Source: a virus
Reading direction: 5' to 3' (one strand)
DNA length: 64,000 nucleotides
Virus record (IMG/VR): IMGVR_UViG_3300020733_000013
Span: 1 to 64,000 of that record
The notes beneath the pieces were generated by a model, which was not told the origin of the DNA, did not search any database, and was given only the letters and a program-made list of their open reading frames with translations. Positions 1-52,244 of this stretch are shown piece after piece (the stretch's first letter is position 1; each line of letters begins with the position of its first letter). The position numbers and the translations under genes are program-made.

Positions 1-234
1 ACCTATTGGACTGAACATTACTACGGAAGCAAACGCAACATTACCACTATCAGTTGGAAGGGTAAGGGTGAAGTTGACACTAATGAAATTCGTAAATGGT
101 GTAAGAAGACATTTGGTAAGAGTGGCTACCGTGAAGATATTGAAGATAGTTACTGGGTAGATAATACAGAAGTTGGCGAAATCATGTTGTGCAAAGATGA
201 GTTTCTTACTATGTTTCTATTGAGGTGGACATGA
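1..234 (+). CDS. Partial small phage protein, 'WC...F.L.W' family
   Basis: Frame 1 is open from the window edge: ...EIRKWCKKTFG...EFLTMFLLRWT*. Its TGA overlaps the next ATG (ATGA). Confidence 0.75.
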   Translation, partial: TYWTEHYYGSKRNITTISWKGKGEVDTNEIRKWCKKTFGKSGYREDIEDSYWVDNTEVGEIMLCKDEFLTMFLLRWT

Positions 235-617
235 CAACATTACATGATCCTAATATAGCCAGTAATGTGACGGCTACGGCGCAGAAGATTCTCATGCCCA
301 TGATTAAACACCTTACACCTACATTACTGGCACATGGTATATTGGGTGTACAACCTATGACAGGGTCGGTGGGGCAAATCTTTACTATGCGGCACAGCTA
401 TACACCACAGTCCAAATACAAGTTCAGCCGTGCTAAGTGGTACGAAGCAGACCATCGCTACGAAGACTACGAGGAAGTTATAGCATGGTGTACTGAACAT
501 TTTGGCCCACGTCCTCGATATCCTGATGCTTGGACACGATGGGCTGATATTCACATTGATAAAATTCGATTCCGTGACGAAAAAGATTATGCTTGGTTTG
601 TATTACGCTGGTCATGA
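231..617 (+). CDS. Fusion of a major-capsid (gp23)-like peptide and a 'WC' family domain
   Basis: N-half ILMPMIKHLTPTLLAHGILGVQPMTGSVGQIFTMR resembles the conserved gp23 GVQPM segment. C-half has AWCTEHFG...FRDEKDYAWFVLRW. Confidence 0.7.
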   Translation: MTTLHDPNIASNVTATAQKILMPMIKHLTPTLLAHGILGVQPMTGSVGQIFTMRHSYTPQSKYKFSRAKWYEADHRYEDYEEVIAWCTEHFGPRPRYPDAWTRWADIHIDKIRFRDEKDYAWFVLRWS

Positions 618-889
618 AATATAATCTCAATAGAAGTATAGGCTGGAACTTAGATATGACCAACATGATAGTAACACAACGAATTTATAATGGCGCTGAT
701 TGTTATAATTGGACTGAATATTTTGCTATCATTCCTAGACGAACCGTATCAGGTAAACTAGTATTCTGGCAAAAAGCATATAAGCGTAGATACTGGGCGG
801 TGTGGGGTACTGGGTTTCATATGGAACCTGAAGTTGAATACGGGGATTTATTTGACGTATTGTTATATCCTTGTGTCAACGTTCTGTAA
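614..889 (+). CDS. Hypothetical phage protein
   Basis: ATGA coupling with the upstream gene; Trp-rich motif WTEYFAIIPRRTVSG. Confidence 0.65.
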   Translation: MKYNLNRSIGWNLDMTNMIVTQRIYNGADCYNWTEYFAIIPRRTVSGKLVFWQKAYKRRYWAVWGTGFHMEPEVEYGDLFDVLLYPCVNVL

Positions 890-921
890 GGTTTGTGCGT
901 TATTAGTATACAGGAGTAGAT

Positions 922-1116
922 ATGACTTATTCTGAATGCCACAATAACGCACACTGGACGACCAAAACAGTTGGTCCTTTTTTGAGAAAAATGCATGATA
1001 AAGTTGAAAAGTGGTGCGATATCTATTTGGGCAACAATAACTATTGTAGCGACGGATACCATTATTCTTTCAAACATAAAAAGCATGCGGAAATGTTTGC
1101 TTTAAGATGGCTATAA
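922..1116 (+). CDS. Small 'WC' family phage protein
   Basis: AGGAG RBS; KWCDIYLG...FKHKKHAEMFALRW. Confidence 0.75.
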   Translation: MTYSECHNNAHWTTKTVGPFLRKMHDKVEKWCDIYLGNNNYCSDGYHYSFKHKKHAEMFALRWL

Positions 1117-1334
1117 CAATTAAATTAGATGGTCCTTTATCTTCACAAGAAGAATTATGGCTCGCAAAAAACGTAGGACCTAGACTTCATTATATTCACA
1201 ACAGTGTTGGCGGAGAAGGTTGGATTGCCAAACGTCAACAATCTCAAAGTTACTCATATGAAAAACCTGAATGGGCATTGACATTGGAAGACGAACGTTT
1301 TGCAACTTTCTTTTTGTTGATGTTCCCGAAATGA
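1107..1334 (+). CDS. Small 'WC'-like family phage protein
   Basis: WLAKNVGP...LEDERFATFFLLMF. Confidence 0.7.
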   Translation: MAITIKLDGPLSSQEELWLAKNVGPRLHYIHNSVGGEGWIAKRQQSQSYSYEKPEWALTLEDERFATFFLLMFPK

Positions 1335-1549
1335 TAGAGGTTAAACTTATAGACAAGATGCCCAATGAAATTATGGACATCGTTAGAGAACTTAGACAAC
1401 AGGGGTATACTCAAGGTAATGATTTTGATTTTGCGTACAATAAACCCAGATATGATGACTTGAGCCATGATGCAGTGTATAATAGACATACTGTGTTCAC
1501 ATTTTATAAAGAAAAATTAGCAACATGGTTTAGTCTAAGGTATGAATAA
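1331..1549 (+). CDS. Small phage protein with the family C-terminal motif
   Basis: ATGA coupling; ends FTFYKEKLATWFSLRY. Confidence 0.7.
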   Translation: MIEVKLIDKMPNEIMDIVRELRQQGYTQGNDFDFAYNKPRYDDLSHDAVYNRHTVFTFYKEKLATWFSLRYE

Positions 1550-1830
1550 TGGCAATACAAAGTTTAGGAAGTAGCACAGGTACATTTGTACCATTGCAAC
1601 ATGTAACTCAACCTGATCGCACCTCTTACGAAACAACTAGTCGTGGTCGTATTACACATAAGATTGATTTGAATCATCAAAAGATTGATCCAAATGATTA
1701 TATCAAATGGTGTCGTAGAAATTTAGGTGAGCGTGGTGTAGCTTGGGACTTTTGGCTAGCTGGCAATGTGTTGTATATTGAAATCTGGGACGACAAAGCA
1801 AAGTTTATTTACGAAATGTGGAAGAATTAA
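1549..1830 (+). CDS. Small 'WC' family phage protein
   Basis: TAATG coupling; KWCRRNLG...IWDDKAKFIYEMW. Confidence 0.7.
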   Translation: MAIQSLGSSTGTFVPLQHVTQPDRTSYETTSRGRITHKIDLNHQKIDPNDYIKWCRRNLGERGVAWDFWLAGNVLYIEIWDDKAKFIYEMWKN

Positions 1831-1841
1831 GAGGGATACAG

Positions 1842-2390
1842 ATGGCAGCGGATATTATGATTGACATTGAGAGTTTGTCAACAGACCCTTACTGTGTTAT
1901 ACTTACAATTGGCGCAGTGCGCTTTGATCCAAAGGGCTCTGGCATCGCTGAGAGATTGGAACTCAGACCAACAATCGAAGAACAGACAGACATATACAAT
2001 AGAAAGATAAACGATGACACATTACGCTGGTGGAGTGAGCAATCACCCGCAGCCCAAGAAGAAGCATTGGGTGACAGAGATAGAATCTCTTTTAAAGAAT
2101 GCATGGAAAAACTTTACAAGTTTTGCTGGAATCGCCGTGCTGTGTGGAGTAACGGTGCTGCTTTTGACTGCGTGGTTATGGAAACAGCATGGAAACAACT
2201 TGACATGCAAATCCCCTGGCCTTTCTGGAGTGTGCGAGATACCCGTACTCTTTATGAAGTGGCAGGAGTCAGACTCAGTGATGGCGGGCATGTTACTTCT
2301 CACAAAGCAGTAGAAGATGCCGAACGACAAGCACTTGTAGTTCAACAAGCATATATGAAAATGATTAAAGCAGGATTAATGACACGATGA
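1842..2390 (+). CDS. DEDDh 3'-5' exonuclease (DexA/RNase AS-like)
   Basis: MIDIESL (ExoI), WSNGAAFD (ExoII), RDTRT, HKAVEDA (ExoIII). Confidence 0.85.
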   Translation: MAADIMIDIESLSTDPYCVILTIGAVRFDPKGSGIAERLELRPTIEEQTDIYNRKINDDTLRWWSEQSPAAQEEALGDRDRISFKECMEKLYKFCWNRRAVWSNGAAFDCVVMETAWKQLDMQIPWPFWSVRDTRTLYEVAGVRLSDGGHVTSHKAVEDAERQALVVQQAYMKMIKAGLMTR

Positions 2391-3178
2391 TTACATTACT
2401 AGGACACGGATATATTGGCGAACACATTGCAAAAGAGTTTGATGCTAGCGGTATCAACTTTAACTGGTTGCATCACACTGATACAATTCCAGAAGAAACA
2501 ACATTCATTGTTAATGCAACAGGATACACAGGTGTACCAAACGTTGATGCCTGTGAAAAAGAAAAACAACAAACTATCAACGGTAATGTTATCTTCCCAT
2601 TACAGTTAGAACAAAATAACATCAACACGCCTATACTACATATCTCAAGTGGATGCGTATATACCGGATATGAGAAAGAGTTCACAGAAAATGATGCTCC
2701 AAACTTTGACTTTAACAACGGTAGTTTTTATAGCGGTAGTAAAGCACTAGAGCAAAAACTACTTGAGCCATATATGCACAAGAGTTATTTGTTTAGAATT
2801 CGTATGCCTTTTGGTAACGAAAGTCATCCAAAGAACTTGTTTACTAAACTTGAAAAGTATGAAAGACTCATTGACTACCGTAATAGCATCAGTTACGTAC
2901 CTGATGTTGCTAAAGCAGTTCTCCACTTTATCTTGACCAGACCCGAGTGTGGAGTATATAATGTTTGTAATCCGGGTAGCGTCACAACTAAAGATATCAG
3001 TGATGCACTAGGATTGACTAAAGAATGGTTCACAGTGGATGAATTCAAAAACGCAGTAGTTGCACCAAGAAGCAATTGTGTATTGAATTCAGACAAACTA
3101 GAAAAAGTATTCCAAATGATTCCTGCAAAGATGGCAATGTTAATTGCAGTTAAAAAATACTATGAAGTTTCAGAGTGA
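2387..3178 (+). CDS. NDP-sugar epimerase/reductase (RmlD / NRS-ER-like SDR)
   Basis: LGHGYIG Rossmann motif, GxPNVDACE, SSGC, catalytic YSGSK, PRSNCVL. Confidence 0.85.
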   Translation: MITLLGHGYIGEHIAKEFDASGINFNWLHHTDTIPEETTFIVNATGYTGVPNVDACEKEKQQTINGNVIFPLQLEQNNINTPILHISSGCVYTGYEKEFTENDAPNFDFNNGSFYSGSKALEQKLLEPYMHKSYLFRIRMPFGNESHPKNLFTKLEKYERLIDYRNSISYVPDVAKAVLHFILTRPECGVYNVCNPGSVTTKDISDALGLTKEWFTVDEFKNAVVAPRSNCVLNSDKLEKVFQMIPAKMAMLIAVKKYYEVSE

Positions 3179-3752
3179 CGTAGATATTGACTTTGGTAAT
3201 AGAGATAAAGTACTTGAGCACATCGAGTATACCTCTGCTGCCATGCGTAAAGTCAATCCTATTCGTAAACACGCTACTGGCATTTATGTTACTGACGTAC
3301 CATATGATAGTATAAATGACATGGCTAACTTAGATTATCAGGAAGCTGAAAAGCGCGGGTATGTTAAGTTAGACTTTTTGAATGTCCATGTTTACAACAA
3401 GGTACGTGACGAACAACATCTACGTGAACTAATGCGAGAACCTGATTGGGAGAAACTAAAGGATCAAGTATTCGTTGATAAACTTGTTCACTTGAGTAAT
3501 CATTATGCTAGTATGAAACGTATGCCTGAACCTATTGATAGCATACCTAGATTAGCAATGTTCCTTGCTGTGATTCGACCAGCTAAAAAACATTTGATTG
3601 GCTTACCCTGGCGTGAAGTAGCAAAAACTGTATGGGATAAAACTGATGGATACAGTTTCAAAAAGAGTCATAGTATTGCCTACGCACAGTTGGTAGTAGT
3701 ACACATGAACTTGTTAGAAGAATTAGGGGATGCGTTTTACGAGAGTGATTGA
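3162..3752 (+). CDS. Minimal DNA polymerase III alpha (DnaE)-like catalytic fragment
   Basis: SDVDIDF, KHATGIY, GYVKLDFL, YSFKKSHSIAY, all C-family polymerase motifs, in only ~196 aa. Confidence 0.8.
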   Translation: MKFQSDVDIDFGNRDKVLEHIEYTSAAMRKVNPIRKHATGIYVTDVPYDSINDMANLDYQEAEKRGYVKLDFLNVHVYNKVRDEQHLRELMREPDWEKLKDQVFVDKLVHLSNHYASMKRMPEPIDSIPRLAMFLAVIRPAKKHLIGLPWREVAKTVWDKTDGYSFKKSHSIAYAQLVVVHMNLLEELGDAFYESD

Positions 3753-4100
3753 TTTACGTTTGCTTTTGCGTTTTCCTAGCTCTAACATACTACAAATAGG
3801 ACCGTGTACAATTGTTAGGCTTTTGTTATTGAACGTTCGTAAATAGGGTTTGAAGTCATTCCAATCATGCTTCAAGAACATATTAATGGGGATCAATCTA
3901 TTTGATTCCCACCACCATATCTCACCTAGTTCTAAAAACTTTTCACGCATGATCTGGTCAATAATCGAACCATAATCATATATAGTGGTAACAACATCAT
4001 CACGGTTTTGTACGATTCCTACATAGTCTTGACCTGCATAGGAGCAAACAGTGATGAATGGGTGATTTTCTGACAGTTTCTTAAAAAATTCGTTGTGCAT
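3723..4100 (-). CDS. Hypothetical phage protein
   Basis: 125-aa ORF preceded by a late-type GATAAATA on the minus strand (4121-4128). Confidence 0.7.
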   Translation of the reverse strand: MHNEFFKKLSENHPFITVCSYAGQDYVGIVQNRDDVVTTIYDYGSIIDQIMREKFLELGEIWWWESNRLIPINMFLKHDWNDFKPYLRTFNNKSLTIVHGPICSMLELGKRKSKRKSITLVKRIP

Positions 4101-4185
4101 CAAAATAATAGCTCTTGGTTTATTTATCTGGGCAATTTTACCATTATATTTAATTTCTTACTAAATACATTAAAGGAGCCAATCT

Positions 4186-4956
4186 GTGTACTCAACGAGT
4201 GTTTATTATTATATACCAAGACAGGAAGTTGTCTTGTACACCGGCACTTCACCTAGGAGCTATCAGACCGTGTATTCAAAGAACCTAAAACTACATAAGG
4301 GTGTAGACAACAGAATCCAATTTAGATTCATCAACCAAGAACAGAAGCCCGTAGACGTATCTAGTGCAGTCTCAGGTTCTAATCAGATTACATTCCGTCT
4401 TATGGACTATCAAGCAAATACTATCTTATTGGAAACTGCACTTACCTCAATAGGTTTGGACCTTACTGGTATATTAGAATTGCAACTGATGGAAGGGCAA
4501 TTAGCTGGGTTTGATTCACAAAAATGCTATTACTCACTAGAGATTCCTGTAGGCAGTTTCAACCAACCTGTATTCACCGACAGTAATTCAGGAGCACGTG
4601 GTATAATGGAAATATGTGATAGTGTCTTACCTGCACATATGCCAAGTACCACAATAACTATTCCTAGCTTACCTGTTCCAGTTAACGGTGTCACTACTTT
4701 CCAATCTAGCGTATACGACAACACATACAACCCATCACTAACACTACAAACATATTTCACTAACTTTGTTGGTAACGTAACTGTACAAGGTTCAACCAGT
4801 CAAGATGTTGATTTCTATGATATCAACACAGTACAGTATGGTTCTAGTACACCATTTACTGACACTGACTATTATGTGATTGATGGGTTTCATCCTTTCA
4901 TTCGTTTGAATGTAGTATCTACACAGGGCACATTGGATAACATAATTGCCAGATAA
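4186..4956 (+). CDS. Putative virion structural protein
   Basis: AAGGAG RBS, GTG start, upstream CTAAATA; beta-rich S/T/N composition. Confidence 0.55.
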   Translation: MYSTSVYYYIPRQEVVLYTGTSPRSYQTVYSKNLKLHKGVDNRIQFRFINQEQKPVDVSSAVSGSNQITFRLMDYQANTILLETALTSIGLDLTGILELQLMEGQLAGFDSQKCYYSLEIPVGSFNQPVFTDSNSGARGIMEICDSVLPAHMPSTTITIPSLPVPVNGVTTFQSSVYDNTYNPSLTLQTYFTNFVGNVTVQGSTSQDVDFYDINTVQYGSSTPFTDTDYYVIDGFHPFIRLNVVSTQGTLDNIIAR

Positions 4957-49973: not shown

Positions 49974-52244
49974 ATGCACCCAGAAATCGAAGCCATCATT
50001 GAACATGCAATTGAATTGGCTAAGTCAAAAAGCCATCAATATTGTACAGTAGAGCACTTGTTACTAAGCCTAGTATCACATGCTCCCTTTAAGAAAGTGT
50101 TAGACTCTTATGGAGTTGACACTGAAATGATGACTAAGGAAATTGACGTATACTTAAATGGGTTACAAGCAATTACAGTAACACTAGGTCCCGGACAAGA
50201 GATTCAACCACGTAAAACAAATAGTTTGGAACGTGTTACAAACCGTGCAGTAGCACAAACATTGTTCTTGGGTCGTAAACAAGTTACAACTATTGACCTT
50301 TACTTGAGCATTTCAAGCGAAGCAAATAGTCATGCACATTATTTCTTGTTGAAATATGGCATTGAGAAAAGTCAATTTGTACCTTACTGGCAAAAGAATT
50401 ACAAGAACGAAGGTGCTCTTGTACGATTAAGCAACGAACAAGCAGACGAAATCTTAGAAGAATACACAACAAACTTGACTGATTTGGCTCGTCAGCATAA
50501 ACTAGAACCAATGATCGGTCGTAGCCAAGAAGTTGATGACATTGTAAACGTATTGGCTAAACGTTTCAAAAGCAACGTGTTACTAGTTGGTGATCCAGGT
50601 GTAGGTAAAACTGCTATTGTCGAAGGTATGGCTCAAATGATTGCAGAAGGTAACGTGCCTGAGTTCTTAGTTGGTCACGAAGTTTACAGCTTGGAAATCG
50701 GTAGCTTACTTGCTGGTAGTAAATATCGCGGTGACTTTGAAGAAAAGGTCAAAGCAGTCATTGAAGCACTTAACACCAAGAAACAAACTATCTTGTTTAT
50801 TGACGAAGCACATACAATGCAAGGTGCAGGTTCAAGTTCTCAAAGTGGTCCAGACTTTGCAAACATGATTAAGCCTGCAATTACAAAAGGTACATTGAAA
50901 GTTATTGCAAGTACTACTTGGGAAGAGTACTATGAGAGTTTTGAGAAGGATCGTGCATTAATGCGTAGATTCTATCGTGTCTCAGTAGATGAACCAAATC
51001 GTGATTCAACAGTTCGCATTTTAAGTGGCTTAAGTGGTCGTTTGGATGACTTCCATAGTGTTAAGATCACACCCGAAGCGGTTGAAGCAGCAGTTGACAG
51101 TGCTACACGTTACATGCATGACCGTAAAAATCCTGATAAATCTATTGACTTATTAGATGCAGCTTGTGCTAAACAACGTGTATTAGGTAACAAAGACGCA
51201 CAAATCACTAAAGAATTGATTTACGAGCAAGTTGAACGTATCTCTGGAGTACCAGCAGATAAACTCAGTAACGACAACAACGAACGTATCACAAACCTTG
51301 AGTCTAATATCAAAGACAAATTGTACGGTCAAGAGGAATCAGTTAGTAAAGTACTTGACCGTATATATGTCTCGTTTGCAGGTATCGGTAGTCAAACTAA
51401 ACCACTTGCAAGTTTCTTATTCTTGGGCCCAACTGGTACAGGTAAGACTGAACTGGCTAAGCAATTGAGCAAGAACTTAGATATGCCATTACTCAAATAT
51501 GATATGAGCGAGTATTCAGAGAAGTTCAATGTTAGTTCATTGCTTGGTGCGCCTCCTGGATATGTTGGTTATGGTGAAAGTAGCTTAGGTGGTGGTAAAC
51601 TTATCAATGACTTGAGTAAGAATCCACATGCTATTCTATTGTTTGATGAAGTTGAAAAAGCTCACCCAGATATCTTTAACATTTTCTTGCAATTACTTGA
51701 CGAAGGTCGTGTAACAGGAACTAATGGTAAAGAAGTCAATGCTAAAAACTGTATAATTATCATGACCAGTAACTTGGGTAGTAGTGACAGCGAACGTGCA
51801 GTAATTGGTTTTGGTAGTACTGAACGTACGGGTGATGATGAAAAAGCATTGAAGGACTTCTTCAAGCCTGAATTCAGAAACCGTATTGACTTGATTACTA
51901 AGTTCAACAAACTTGACAATCTTGCAATTAAGAAAGTGGTTATCAAGTTTACTGACGAGTTAAAGAAAGCATTGAAGGATACACAAGATATCGTGTTGAC
52001 TTTAACAGAACCAGTAGTTGATTACTTAGCAGAACAGGGCTACGATAGTAAGATGGGCGCACGTCCTCTTGCACGTAAAATTGATGAACTAATTCGTGTT
52101 CCATTGAGTAAGAAGATTCTTTTTGAACGTATTAGAAGTGCAAATATTACTGTAGTGATGAATGACGGTAAAGTTGATTTTGAAGTACATCAAAAAATGA
52201 TTGCAGAAGTAGGCGAAGATGGCATTATTAAAATCAGCAACTAA
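49974..52244 (+). CDS. clpA: ClpA-like AAA+ unfoldase
   Basis: Clp N domain, two Walker A motifs (GVGKT, GTGKT), PPGYVG, IGF ClpP-docking loop, no ClpB middle domain. Confidence 0.9.
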   Translation: MHPEIEAIIEHAIELAKSKSHQYCTVEHLLLSLVSHAPFKKVLDSYGVDTEMMTKEIDVYLNGLQAITVTLGPGQEIQPRKTNSLERVTNRAVAQTLFLGRKQVTTIDLYLSISSEANSHAHYFLLKYGIEKSQFVPYWQKNYKNEGALVRLSNEQADEILEEYTTNLTDLARQHKLEPMIGRSQEVDDIVNVLAKRFKSNVLLVGDPGVGKTAIVEGMAQMIAEGNVPEFLVGHEVYSLEIGSLLAGSKYRGDFEEKVKAVIEALNTKKQTILFIDEAHTMQGAGSSSQSGPDFANMIKPAITKGTLKVIASTTWEEYYESFEKDRALMRRFYRVSVDEPNRDSTVRILSGLSGRLDDFHSVKITPEAVEAAVDSATRYMHDRKNPDKSIDLLDAACAKQRVLGNKDAQITKELIYEQVERISGVPADKLSNDNNERITNLESNIKDKLYGQEESVSKVLDRIYVSFAGIGSQTKPLASFLFLGPTGTGKTELAKQLSKNLDMPLLKYDMSEYSEKFNVSSLLGAPPGYVGYGESSLGGGKLINDLSKNPHAILLFDEVEKAHPDIFNIFLQLLDEGRVTGTNGKEVNAKNCIIIMTSNLGSSDSERAVIGFGSTERTGDDEKALKDFFKPEFRNRIDLITKFNKLDNLAIKKVVIKFTDELKKALKDTQDIVLTLTEPVVDYLAEQGYDSKMGARPLARKIDELIRVPLSKKILFERIRSANITVVMNDGKVDFEVHQKMIAEVGEDGIIKISN

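What the first reader, a model, noticed from the sequence alone, without database searches (positions are those of the whole stretch)
231..617. Stand-alone major-capsid 'Gol'-like segment fused to a small accessory domain
Seen: residues ~14-59 (NVTATAQKILMPMIKHLTPTLLAHGILGVQPMTGSVGQIFTMRHSY) follow the pattern of the most conserved gp23-type capsid segment (RR..P..IA..I.GVQPM..P.G..F..R..Y). Here it sits in a 128-aa ORF fused to the local WC-family domain. Established: in T4 this region of gp23 is the Gol peptide, which binds EF-Tu and activates the e14 Lit protease; capsid proteins also trigger other anti-phage sensors. Inference: it may be a capsid-mimic decoy against capsid-sensing defence, an EF-Tu-binding module, or an inhibitor of a competitor's capsid assembly.
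Basis: partly seen in the sequence, partly recalled or inferred. Interest (0 to 1): 0.75.

Follow-up and report, generated by a model that had tools for sequence, protein, structure and literature searches.

The report
Capsid-segment copy on phage mini-protein
An uncultured freshwater giant phage keeps, under selection, a 128-residue gene that joins a floppy copy of the most conserved stretch of T4-type capsid protein (the stretch that in T4 binds the host factor EF-Tu) to a tiny undescribed folded domain. What the gene does is untested, and I found no paper that describes it.

Summary
ORF 231-617 (+) encodes 128 aa. Residues 15-77 match Pfam Gp23 (E 4e-12, above the curated cut-off), and residues 19-58 align to T4 gp23 93-132, the Gol region.

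- **Not a capsid protein:** only 58 of 376 profile positions are present. Complete relatives of about 360 kb carry an intact capsid gene elsewhere.
- **Structure:** AlphaFold models the N-terminal piece with low confidence. Residues 68-128 form a confident small beta-alpha-beta-beta-alpha domain ("LRW" domain) with no clear known fold. The upstream gene is a paralogue of this domain.
- **Not a one-off scar:** there are over 100 clusters at 34-91% identity and 192 IMG/VR stretches. dN/dS is about 0.26 for the capsid piece and about 0.14 for the domain.
- **Absent from cultured phages:** I found no stand-alone copy or carrier domain in 50,697 deposited phage records.
- **Variants:** sister members have a decayed piece or a Walker-A piece. 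The capsid piece also sits on other carriers.

The function is open. My best guess (0.4) is peptide mimicry of the capsid N-arm towards a partner such as EF-Tu, GroEL or a sensor. This scan noted the same family earlier on other genomes (e1-5358976, e1-5958238, e1-5712486).

The parts
231..617 (+). CDS of the 128-aa mini-protein (P0001), stop codon included
   Evidence: ORF listing and translation. Orthologues at 34-91% identity share the start and end.
258..401 (+). Copy of the capsid N-arm / Gol segment (aa 10-57). The T4 Gol-equivalent is aa 19-58, nt 285-404.
   Evidence: Pfam Gp23 E 4.4e-12. T4 gp23 93-132 aligned. 48-50% identity to the capsid proteins of complete relatives. AlphaFold pLDDT 55-61, so no stable fold of its own is predicted. 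dN/dS about 0.22-0.26.
414..443 (+). KYKFSRAKWY motif (aa 62-71), the most conserved junction between the capsid piece and the folded domain
   Evidence: Y63, F65, R67 and W70 are invariant, and K62, S66 and A68 nearly invariant, in 37 sequences. F65, R67 and W70 are invariant, and K62, Y63, S66 and Y71 nearly invariant, in 80 sequences.
432..614 (+). Small folded C-terminal 'LRW' domain (aa 68-128): strand, helix, two strands, helix, ending F.LRW
   Evidence: AlphaFold pLDDT 86-93. No clear PDB fold, best Z 5.4. BFVD matches are only small uncharacterized proteins of uncultured phages. dN/dS about 0.14-0.18.
1..234 (+). Upstream paralogue of the LRW domain, cut at its 5' end by the start of the contig. 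Its last codons TTG AGG TGG (L R W) carry the ribosome-binding motif of the mini-protein gene.
   Evidence: Profile of the C-domain hits it at E 1.9e-6, 26 bits. Sequence read.
222..234 (+). GAGGTGG Shine-Dalgarno-like motif (222-228) and ATGA stop/start overlap (231-234): translational coupling to the upstream gene
   Evidence: Read directly from the sequence. This is inference, not an expression measurement.
614..889 (+). Downstream 91-aa gene whose ATG (614-616) overlaps the mini-protein's stop. In another phage a homologue of it is fused to a Gol-like segment (P0223).
   Evidence: BLASTP to P0223 aa 26-98: E 7e-8, 27% identity. P0223 aa 104-146 match the Gol profile.
922..1830 (+). Further small genes of the tandem array (922-1116, 1107-1334, 1271-1549, 1549-1830) with W-C...F.LRW-like ends
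   Evidence: ORF list. C-terminal motif scan. Weak profile matches at E 0.003 to 3. Membership is firm only for 1-234 and marginal for 922-1116.

Best explanation
The gene encodes a two-part accessory protein of a lineage of uncultured freshwater jumbo T4-type myoviruses. The N-terminal part is a flexible copy, about 50 residues long, of the capsid protein's N-arm / Gol segment. It is displayed on a small stable carrier, the LRW domain.

I think it most likely works by peptide mimicry. The displayed segment would bind whatever recognises the same segment of newly made, unassembled capsid protein, and so occupy or tune that partner. The documented partner in T4 is EF-Tu domains II-III. GroEL and a Lit-type sensor that reads the Gol-EF-Tu complex are the other candidates. 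The carrier would supply solubility and stability.

**Shown here:** the homology, the low-confidence model of the N-terminal piece (no stable fold predicted), the folded carrier, family conservation, and purifying selection on both parts.

**Inferred:** that the segment binds anything, which partner it binds, and the effect on infection.
For: - **Homology to the Gol / N-arm segment.**
- **Same conserved positions as in the capsid protein.** The positions kept in 71 family members are P23, I25, R/K26, P30, A34, I37, G39-V-Q-P-M43, G48 and F51. They coincide with those shared by the T4 and relatives' capsid sequences aligned, although the rest of the capsid fold is absent. This suggests the shared constraint is something other than the capsid fold, for example a common binding surface.
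- **Purifying selection on the piece.** Pooled dN/dS is 0.26 over five independent pairs (Fisher p 9e-14). The pairwise median is 0.22.
- **No predicted fold for the piece.** AlphaFold pLDDT is 55-61 for the piece and about 90 for the carrier. This fits a displayed peptide.
- **The piece recurs on different carriers.** A diverged second LRW subfamily is related at hhalign 99.2%. Other proteins carry it on unrelated tails, alone in 63-97 aa proteins, or twice in one protein.
- **Patchy among complete relatives.** The piece is present in G001, G002 and G004 and was not detected in G003. This fits an accessory gene rather than an essential assembly gene.
- **Literature.** Gol is the most conserved part of gp23 and binds EF-Tu (PMC3014915). 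The gp23 N-terminus targets fusion proteins to GroEL (PMC3012670).
Against: - No binding partner was shown by any test here.
- In T4 the free Gol peptide is an activator of Lit. A protective decoy therefore needs the extra assumption of binding without activation.
- EF-Tu is, from general knowledge, very abundant and hard to titrate.
- The second Arg of the capsid 'RR' is not kept in this subfamily (Q, K or N at position 27).
- About half of the retrieved proteins with this carrier lack a recognisable capsid piece. They have a decayed 'NLCKEI.LPM' remnant or a Walker-A piece, so the carrier may be the functional constant.
- The piece evolves faster than the carrier and much faster than the true capsid segment, which is nearly invariant among G001-G003.
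- A later check in this scan priced the mimicry reading of a different capsid-fragment family at only 13 in 100 (e1-4035658).
Confidence: 0.4

Rival explanations
1. Capsid or prohead docking. The N-arm copy lets the mini-protein dock where the capsid protein's own N-arm binds. That is the scaffolding core inside the prohead, or neighbouring subunits on the expanded shell. The LRW domain would then be packaged as an internal, possibly injected, protein or would decorate the head. This is analogous in logic to the capsid-targeting sequence of T4 internal proteins.
For: In T4 the gp23* region 66-105 is disordered inside the unexpanded head and is thought to contact the scaffold. It later forms the external N-arm with extensive contacts between subunits (PMC9546572). 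The mini-protein starts close to where the mature capsid N-terminus would lie in relatives; this is inferred from the alignment. The conserved positions match those of the capsid protein.
Against: The gene sits in a tightly coupled array of small genes upstream of exonuclease, polymerase-subunit, primase and helicase genes, not in the head module. Its distribution among complete relatives is patchy and its N-terminal modules are swapped. Sister proteins with Walker-A pieces have no obvious route to the capsid.
Confidence: 0.2
2. The capsid piece has no function of its own. The LRW domain would be the working part, and the N-terminal region a tolerated, recombining leader that happens to descend from an old capture of capsid-gene sequence.
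For: The C-domain is the invariant part of the family. Among 250 retrieved proteins, 95 have another N-terminus and 30 have a Walker-A piece. A graded series runs from an intact to a decayed capsid piece (P0048 to P0090). The piece has a higher dN/dS than the domain.
Against: A dN/dS of 0.26 is far below neutrality. The positions kept coincide with the motif positions shared by the T4 and relatives' capsid sequences. The piece is kept in 105 retrieved clusters with this carrier and recurs on unrelated carriers and alone. The leader aa 1-13 is less conserved in pairwise comparisons (median dN/dS about 0.5).
Confidence: 0.15
3. Dominant-negative weapon against co-infecting T4-type phages. The free N-arm / first-strand segment would insert into folding or assembling capsid protein of a competitor and poison its capsomers. 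The Walker-A pieces of sister proteins would similarly poison oligomeric ATPases.
For: Capsid protein and DnaB-like helicase are known oligomers, and packaging terminases are generally described as oligomeric motors (general knowledge). The pieces are their most conserved segments. The genes are accessory, in tandem arrays, and variable.
Against: The phage's own capsid segment is as similar to the piece as foreign ones are: 48-50% identity against 50-52% for cultured jumbo phages. Self-poisoning would have to be avoided by timing or amount. There is no evidence of interference.
Confidence: 0.1

Closest known systems
Gol region of T4 gp23 (residues about 93-122), cofactor of the e14 Lit protease through EF-Tu
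   Same: It is homologous: aa 19-58 align to gp23 93-132 with the GVQPM...G.(I/V)F core, and the segment matches Pfam Gp23. The review states that this is the most conserved part of gp23 and that a short peptide of it suffices to bind EF-Tu domains II-III (PMC3014915).
   Different: In T4 the segment is part of the 521-aa capsid protein and no separate gene encodes it. Here it is a stand-alone gene product on a foreign carrier domain in a non-structural gene array. EF-Tu binding or Lit activation by this protein is untested.
N-terminus of T4 gp23 as a GroEL-targeting tag (Snyder and Tarkowski 2005, as cited in PMC3012670)
   Same: The mini-protein is in effect a natural fusion of a gp23-type N-terminal segment to another domain. 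That is the kind of construct reported to be strongly targeted to GroEL.
   Different: Which gp23 residues carry the targeting is not given in the text I could read. The propeptide part (gp23 1-65) is absent here, and nothing was tested.
Capsid-targeting sequence of T4 internal proteins (IPI-III, Alt); from general knowledge, not checked here
   Same: A short N-terminal peptide gives a small non-structural protein an address related to the head.
   Different: The T4 sequence is about 10 residues, is unrelated to gp23 and is removed by the prohead protease. Here the peptide is a 45-50-residue copy of the capsid protein itself, and no L/I-x-E cleavage motif is seen in it.
phrog_12830 ('major head protein', 128-position profile)
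   Same: It is a short protein family of deposited phages that contains the same capsid segment (E 1.1e-4, aa 19-52 against profile positions 94-127).
   Different: There the segment lies at the C-terminal end of the profile, as expected of an N-terminal capsid-gene fragment. There is no LRW domain. I did not follow this up further.

Membership tests
T4-type major capsid protein (Pfam PF07068 Gp23) | Sequence match to the family profile above the curated cut-off | tested here: met
   46.5 bits against a cut-off of 24.4, E 4.4e-12. The genome search gives 45.3 bits.
T4-type major capsid protein (Pfam PF07068 Gp23) | Complete HK97-type capsid fold (E-loop, P domain, A domain), i.e. coverage of most of the 376-position profile | tested here: not met
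   Only profile positions 2-59 are matched, and the protein ends at 128 aa. Residues 68-128 fold as an unrelated small alpha/beta domain. True capsid genes of 391-398 aa lie elsewhere in complete relatives. It is therefore not a capsid protein.
Functional Gol peptide (EF-Tu binder / Lit activator) | Binds EF-Tu domains II-III and promotes Lit cleavage of EF-Tu at Gly59-Ile60 | not testable with these tools
   The definition comes from PMC3014915 and needs biochemistry. The list of the 13 essential Gol residues (Copeland and Kleanthous 2005) was not in the held library.
Functional Gol peptide (EF-Tu binder / Lit activator) | Sequence equivalence to gp23 93-122 | tested here: met
   phmmer alignment of aa 19-58 to gp23 93-132, E about 1e-3 against PDB sequences.
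Gol-LRW mini-protein family (undescribed; defined here) | Length 105-140 aa. N-terminal capsid N-arm piece, KYKFSRAKWY junction, and W-C..FGP...DAW.RW...FRDEKDY.(W/L)F.LRW C-domain | tested here: met
   Invariant in 37 sequences: Y63 F65 R67 W70 W86 C87 F91 G92 A100 W101 R103 F114 D119 L125 W127. The 80-sequence alignment agrees. 108 clusters; 192 IMG/VR stretches.
KH / ACT / ferredoxin-like small alpha-beta folds | Clear structural match of the C-domain | tested here: inconclusive
   Best Z is 5.4 (3k57_A; 50 aligned residues, rmsd 1.9). KH domains score Z 4.0-4.7. All are below the level the tool calls meaningful.

The most novel reading that the evidence does not exclude
These jumbo phages run a protein-level 'excerpt display' system. 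A small carrier domain, multiplied in tandem arrays, presents short copies of the most conserved segments of essential phage proteins. The capsid N-arm / Gol segment is one; in sister genes a Walker-A segment resembling the large terminase and the DnaB-like helicase is another. The excerpts would pre-occupy host factors or immune sensors that read exactly those invariant segments. This would be a decoy strategy not so far described for phages.
Probability: 0.15. Interest if true: 0.9.

Novelty: categorically new. Interest (0 to 1): 0.65.

Why it matters
The Gol segment is the most conserved part of T4-type capsid proteins. Why it binds EF-Tu has been open since 2000; the review only speculates that it helps translation or folding (PMC3014915).

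A natural, selected, stand-alone version of that segment on a soluble carrier is a ready-made reagent for asking what the segment binds in cells. If it acts as a mimic or decoy, it would be a new class of phage counter-measure or host-takeover device built from excerpts of the phage's own core proteins. It would also flag which invariant peptide segments hosts actually read.

If instead it docks to proheads, it would be a new kind of head-targeting tag for giant phages. In either case the family is large, confined so far to uncultured freshwater jumbo phages, and I found it in no paper and no deposited phage genome.

Tried and rejected
- **Complex prediction.** EF-Tu of E. coli (residues 200-394) with aa 8-62 of the family alignment gave no answer (score 0.00, controls not run). 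This is neither for nor against binding.
- **Expression.** No RNA holder was listed among the public runs, so expression is untested.
- **Promoters and terminators.** The sigma-70 and terminator consensus scan of 1-4500 was at chance level. TATAAATA occurs only 3 times in the window, fewer than in shuffles. The timing class therefore rests only on gene neighbourhood.
- **Reads from four other freshwater runs.** No differences were listed inside 231-617, while 637-832 and 1035-1076 vary. Cover is by low-depth contigs of near-identical strains, and X4 and X5 have holes, so I do not count it as a selection test.
- **Fold of the C-domain.** There is no clear PDB match (best Z 5.4). BFVD gives only uncharacterized small phage proteins. 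The ESM Atlas returned only the protein's own cluster.
- **Longer fused forms of the C-domain.** None was found in proteins of 225-2000 aa. By the tool's own statement this is weak evidence.
- **Lit-type peptidase (PF10463).** There were no matches in the window's record or in five relatives, but the control genomes did not ring either, so this is uninformative.
- **Walker-A piece of sister proteins.** A profile of it found nothing among PDB sequences. Single-sequence Pfam and PHROG scans were insignificant. Profile-profile comparison could not decide between terminase (79%) and DnaB-like helicase (89%).
- **Co-variation with the phage's own capsid protein.** This was not testable, because the capsid segment is nearly invariant among G001-G003.
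- **P0121.** The 1194-aa protein with 18 'matches' is a repetitive translation artefact, not a relative.
- **Split capsid gene or intron remnant.** Rejected, because intact capsid genes exist in complete relatives.
- **Primary Gol papers.** These were not held in the library.

Full report
**What is at the coordinates.** ORF 231-617 on the + strand encodes 128 aa (P0001). Its ATG overlaps the stop of the upstream gene (ATGA at 231-234). It is preceded by GAGGTGG at 222-228, which is at the same time part of the upstream gene's final codons TTG AGG TGG (L-R-W). Orthologues begin at the same methionine.

The window is the first 64 kb of a 75.9-kb IMG/VR record that CheckV rates 22% complete. The record is a fragment of a jumbo myovirus. 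It carries tail sheath, tail tube, DnaB-like helicase, primase, clamp loader and a large ATP-dependent protease. Near-identical DNA occurs in several runs labelled freshwater metagenome.

**The capsid match is real.**
- Pfam Gp23 matches aa 15-77 at E 4.4e-12 and 46.5 bits, against a curated cut-off of 24.4. Only profile positions 2-59 of 376 are covered.
- PHROG 138 (major head protein) matches at E 9.5e-12.
- Against PDB sequences, aa 19-58 align to T4 gp23 93-132. This is the Gol region described in review PMC3014915.
- A translated search of 50,697 deposited phage records found 763 records, each with exactly one matching place. In the listed rows that place is the capsid gene (one row is unannotated). 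The best identity is about 52%, to jumbo phages of the GAP32, BF and CBB type.
- The record itself holds no capsid gene. Complete relatives do: G001 (364,247 bp, terminal repeats), G002 and G003 each carry an intact capsid gene of 391-398 aa far from the mini-gene.
- P0001 aa 10-57 are 48-50% identical to those capsid proteins, with 75% positives (E 1e-12 to 1e-13).

The protein is therefore a diverged copy of one capsid segment. It is not a capsid protein and not a piece of a split capsid gene.

**Anatomy.** AlphaFold with an 80-sequence alignment gives two clearly different parts.
- Residues 1-65 have pLDDT 55-61, with a low-confidence helix at 7-38 and then coil.
- Residues 68-128 have pLDDT 86-93 and fold as strand, helix, two strands, helix.

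The folded part has no clear counterpart among solved structures. The best Z is 5.4, and KH-like and ACT-like rows score Z 4-5, below the level the tool treats as meaningful. In the viral model library it matches only small uncharacterized proteins of uncultured phages.

The upstream gene (1-234) is a clear paralogue of this domain (E 1.9e-6). The genes at 922-1116 and 1549-1830 match marginally or weakly. The same tandem array, with overlapping stops and starts, is present in the complete relative G001 with at least eight members.

**It is a family, not a scar.**
- The word-indexed search found 108 clusters (at 90% identity) of 88-169 aa, at 34-91% identity, most over the full length. Some lie on contigs of 359-364 kb.
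- The exhaustive search found 353 representatives at E below 0.001.
- IMG/VR holds 192 confirmed stretches.
- The C-domain alone has no match in the deposited phage collection and no longer fused form (weak evidence).

Twelve orthologues give a median dN/dS (Nei-Gojobori) of 0.22 for the capsid piece, 0.18 for the domain and about 0.5 for the first 13 residues. Synonymous sites are often saturated. Pooling five independent pairs gives 0.26 for the piece (pN 0.18 against pS 0.49, Fisher p 9e-14) and 0.14 for the domain.

The positions kept in the piece are P23, I25, R/K26, P30, A34, I37, G39-V-Q-P-M43, G48 and F51. They coincide with those shared by the T4 and relatives' capsid sequences. The second Arg of the capsid 'RR' is not kept.

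**Variation inside the family.** I classified the 250 retrieved proteins with three profiles. This is not an unbiased sample.

| N-terminal content | Proteins |
|---|---|
| C-domain plus capsid piece | 105 |
| C-domain plus another N-terminus | 95 |
| C-domain plus a Walker-A piece | 30 |
| C-domain plus both pieces (P0031) | 1 |
| Capsid piece on other tails or alone | 19 |

- **Decay of the piece.** A graded series runs from P0048 and P0118 (intact piece containing 'NLCQEI') to P0090 (same leader, 'NLCKEIMLPM'). The frequent 'NLCKEI.LPM' element is therefore a decayed capsid piece.
- **A second carrier subfamily.** Proteins ending 'EELLTWM.LRW' also bear the piece (G001 13.5 kb, G002 160.5 kb, P0237, P0242). 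They are related over both parts (hhalign 99.2%, E 1.4e-19, 96 columns). The fusion therefore seems old.
- **The Walker-A piece.** The motif is YQ ... GG(F/I)K.GE(M/L)..I..GRQTGKS. It resembles both the relatives' large terminase (hhalign 79%, E 1.6e-5) and the DnaB-like helicase (88.7%, E 2.6e-6). I could not decide between them.
- **Distribution among complete relatives.** The capsid-piece version is present in G001, G002 (second subfamily only) and G004 (a variant). It was not detected in G003, whose copy has another N-terminus. That is the behaviour of an accessory gene.

**What the segment does in the real capsid protein (literature).**
- Gol is a 29-residue region that binds EF-Tu domains II-III and thereby lets the e14 Lit protease cut EF-Tu. 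The review calls it the most conserved region of gp23 and relays the suggestion that gp23 of all T4-type phages binds EF-Tu (PMC3014915).
- The gp23 N-terminus strongly targets fusion proteins to GroEL (PMC3012670).
- Structurally, gp23* residues 66-105 are disordered and inside the unexpanded head, probably on the scaffold. After expansion they form the external N-arm with many contacts between subunits. The first ordered residue is L106 (PMC9546572).

P0001 aa 19-31 thus correspond to the flexible arm and aa 32-58 to the first ordered stretch.

**Most likely mechanism.** A peptide that AlphaFold models with low confidence keeps the capsid motif residues without the capsid fold. It is under selection, and it recurs on several carriers and alone. 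The simplest account is that it binds something that also binds that segment of the capsid protein.

I commit to mimicry towards a cellular reader of nascent capsid protein. EF-Tu is the one documented reader; GroEL or a Lit-type sensor are alternatives. My confidence is 0.4. The steps from "conserved displayed peptide" to "binds X" and "benefits the phage" are inference.

Several points weigh against it.
- The free Gol peptide activates Lit rather than blocking it.
- EF-Tu is abundant.
- Half of the carriers lack the piece.
- The Walker-A sisters need a wider explanation.
- This scan's later check of a different capsid-fragment family priced mimicry at 13 in 100.

The rivals are docking to the prohead or capsid (0.2), a piece with no function of its own (0.15, disfavoured by dN/dS and recurrence) and a dominant-negative weapon against competing phages (0.1).

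**Novelty.** I found no paper on stand-alone gp23-segment genes. No deposited phage record has a second Gol-like place or the carrier domain.

The same Gol-LRW family was noted earlier in this scan on other genomes (e1-5358976, e1-5953646, e1-5958238, e1-5712486). Other carriers of capsid pieces were noted in some 40 genomes. Those are unchecked AI notes. I re-derived the observation, the selection test and the sister-module finding independently here.

Noticed in passing
window 220-234; also 1098-1116: The conserved C-terminal L-R-W codons of array members double as translation signals for the next gene. At 220-228, TTG AGG TGG supplies a GAGGTGG ribosome-binding motif 2 nt before ATG 231. 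At 1101-1109, AGA TGG contains the next gene's ATG (1107). Part of the 'LRW' conservation may therefore be dual coding.
   Followed up: partly
L036:5866-6237, L041:2289-2705, L072:3388-3792, L056:5824-6252 and others; alignment A3: Sister members of the same C-domain family carry an N-terminal Walker-A piece (YQ...GGFK.GEM..I..GRQTGKS). It resembles both the relatives' large terminase (hhalign 79%) and the DnaB-like helicase (89%). P0031 carries this piece plus half of the capsid piece plus the domain.
   Followed up: partly
window 614-889 and protein P0223: The gene directly downstream of the mini-gene is related to the first 98 aa of P0223 (E 7e-8). P0223 is a 165-aa metagenomic protein whose C-terminal part (aa 104-146) is another Gol-like segment. 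The capsid piece and this neighbour are therefore joined in one protein elsewhere.
   Followed up: partly
proteins P0231, P0233, P0241, P0246, P0247, P0250: There are other kinds of Gol-segment mini-proteins. Some are stand-alone at 63-67 aa. P0233 has two Gol-like segments in tandem. P0246 has an N-terminal leader that looks like a twin-arginine export signal (RRAFLAG...).
   Followed up: no
window 1 (contig start): A 3180-nt contig of another freshwater run (X2, record 1) covers 1-267 and runs on about 2.9 kb beyond the window's first base. The genome, and probably the small-gene array, therefore continues upstream of the IMG/VR record.
   Followed up: no
window 49974-52244: A 756-aa phage-encoded ATP-dependent protease (PHROG 4871, E 3e-235) with two AAA-type regions. 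A phage-borne protease of this size could be relevant to the turnover of small accessory proteins.
   Followed up: no
protein P0121: This 1194-aa 'protein' with 18 weak matches to aa 7-56 is a perfect tandem repeat that looks like the translation of a tRNA-gene-like array. It is an artefact of the protein library, not a relative.
   Followed up: yes
window 3144-3752: A 202-aa ORF matches a short 'DNA polymerase' PHROG (11778, E 3e-55) and the 773-811 region of a long polymerase profile. The polymerase may be encoded in separate pieces in this phage.
   Followed up: no
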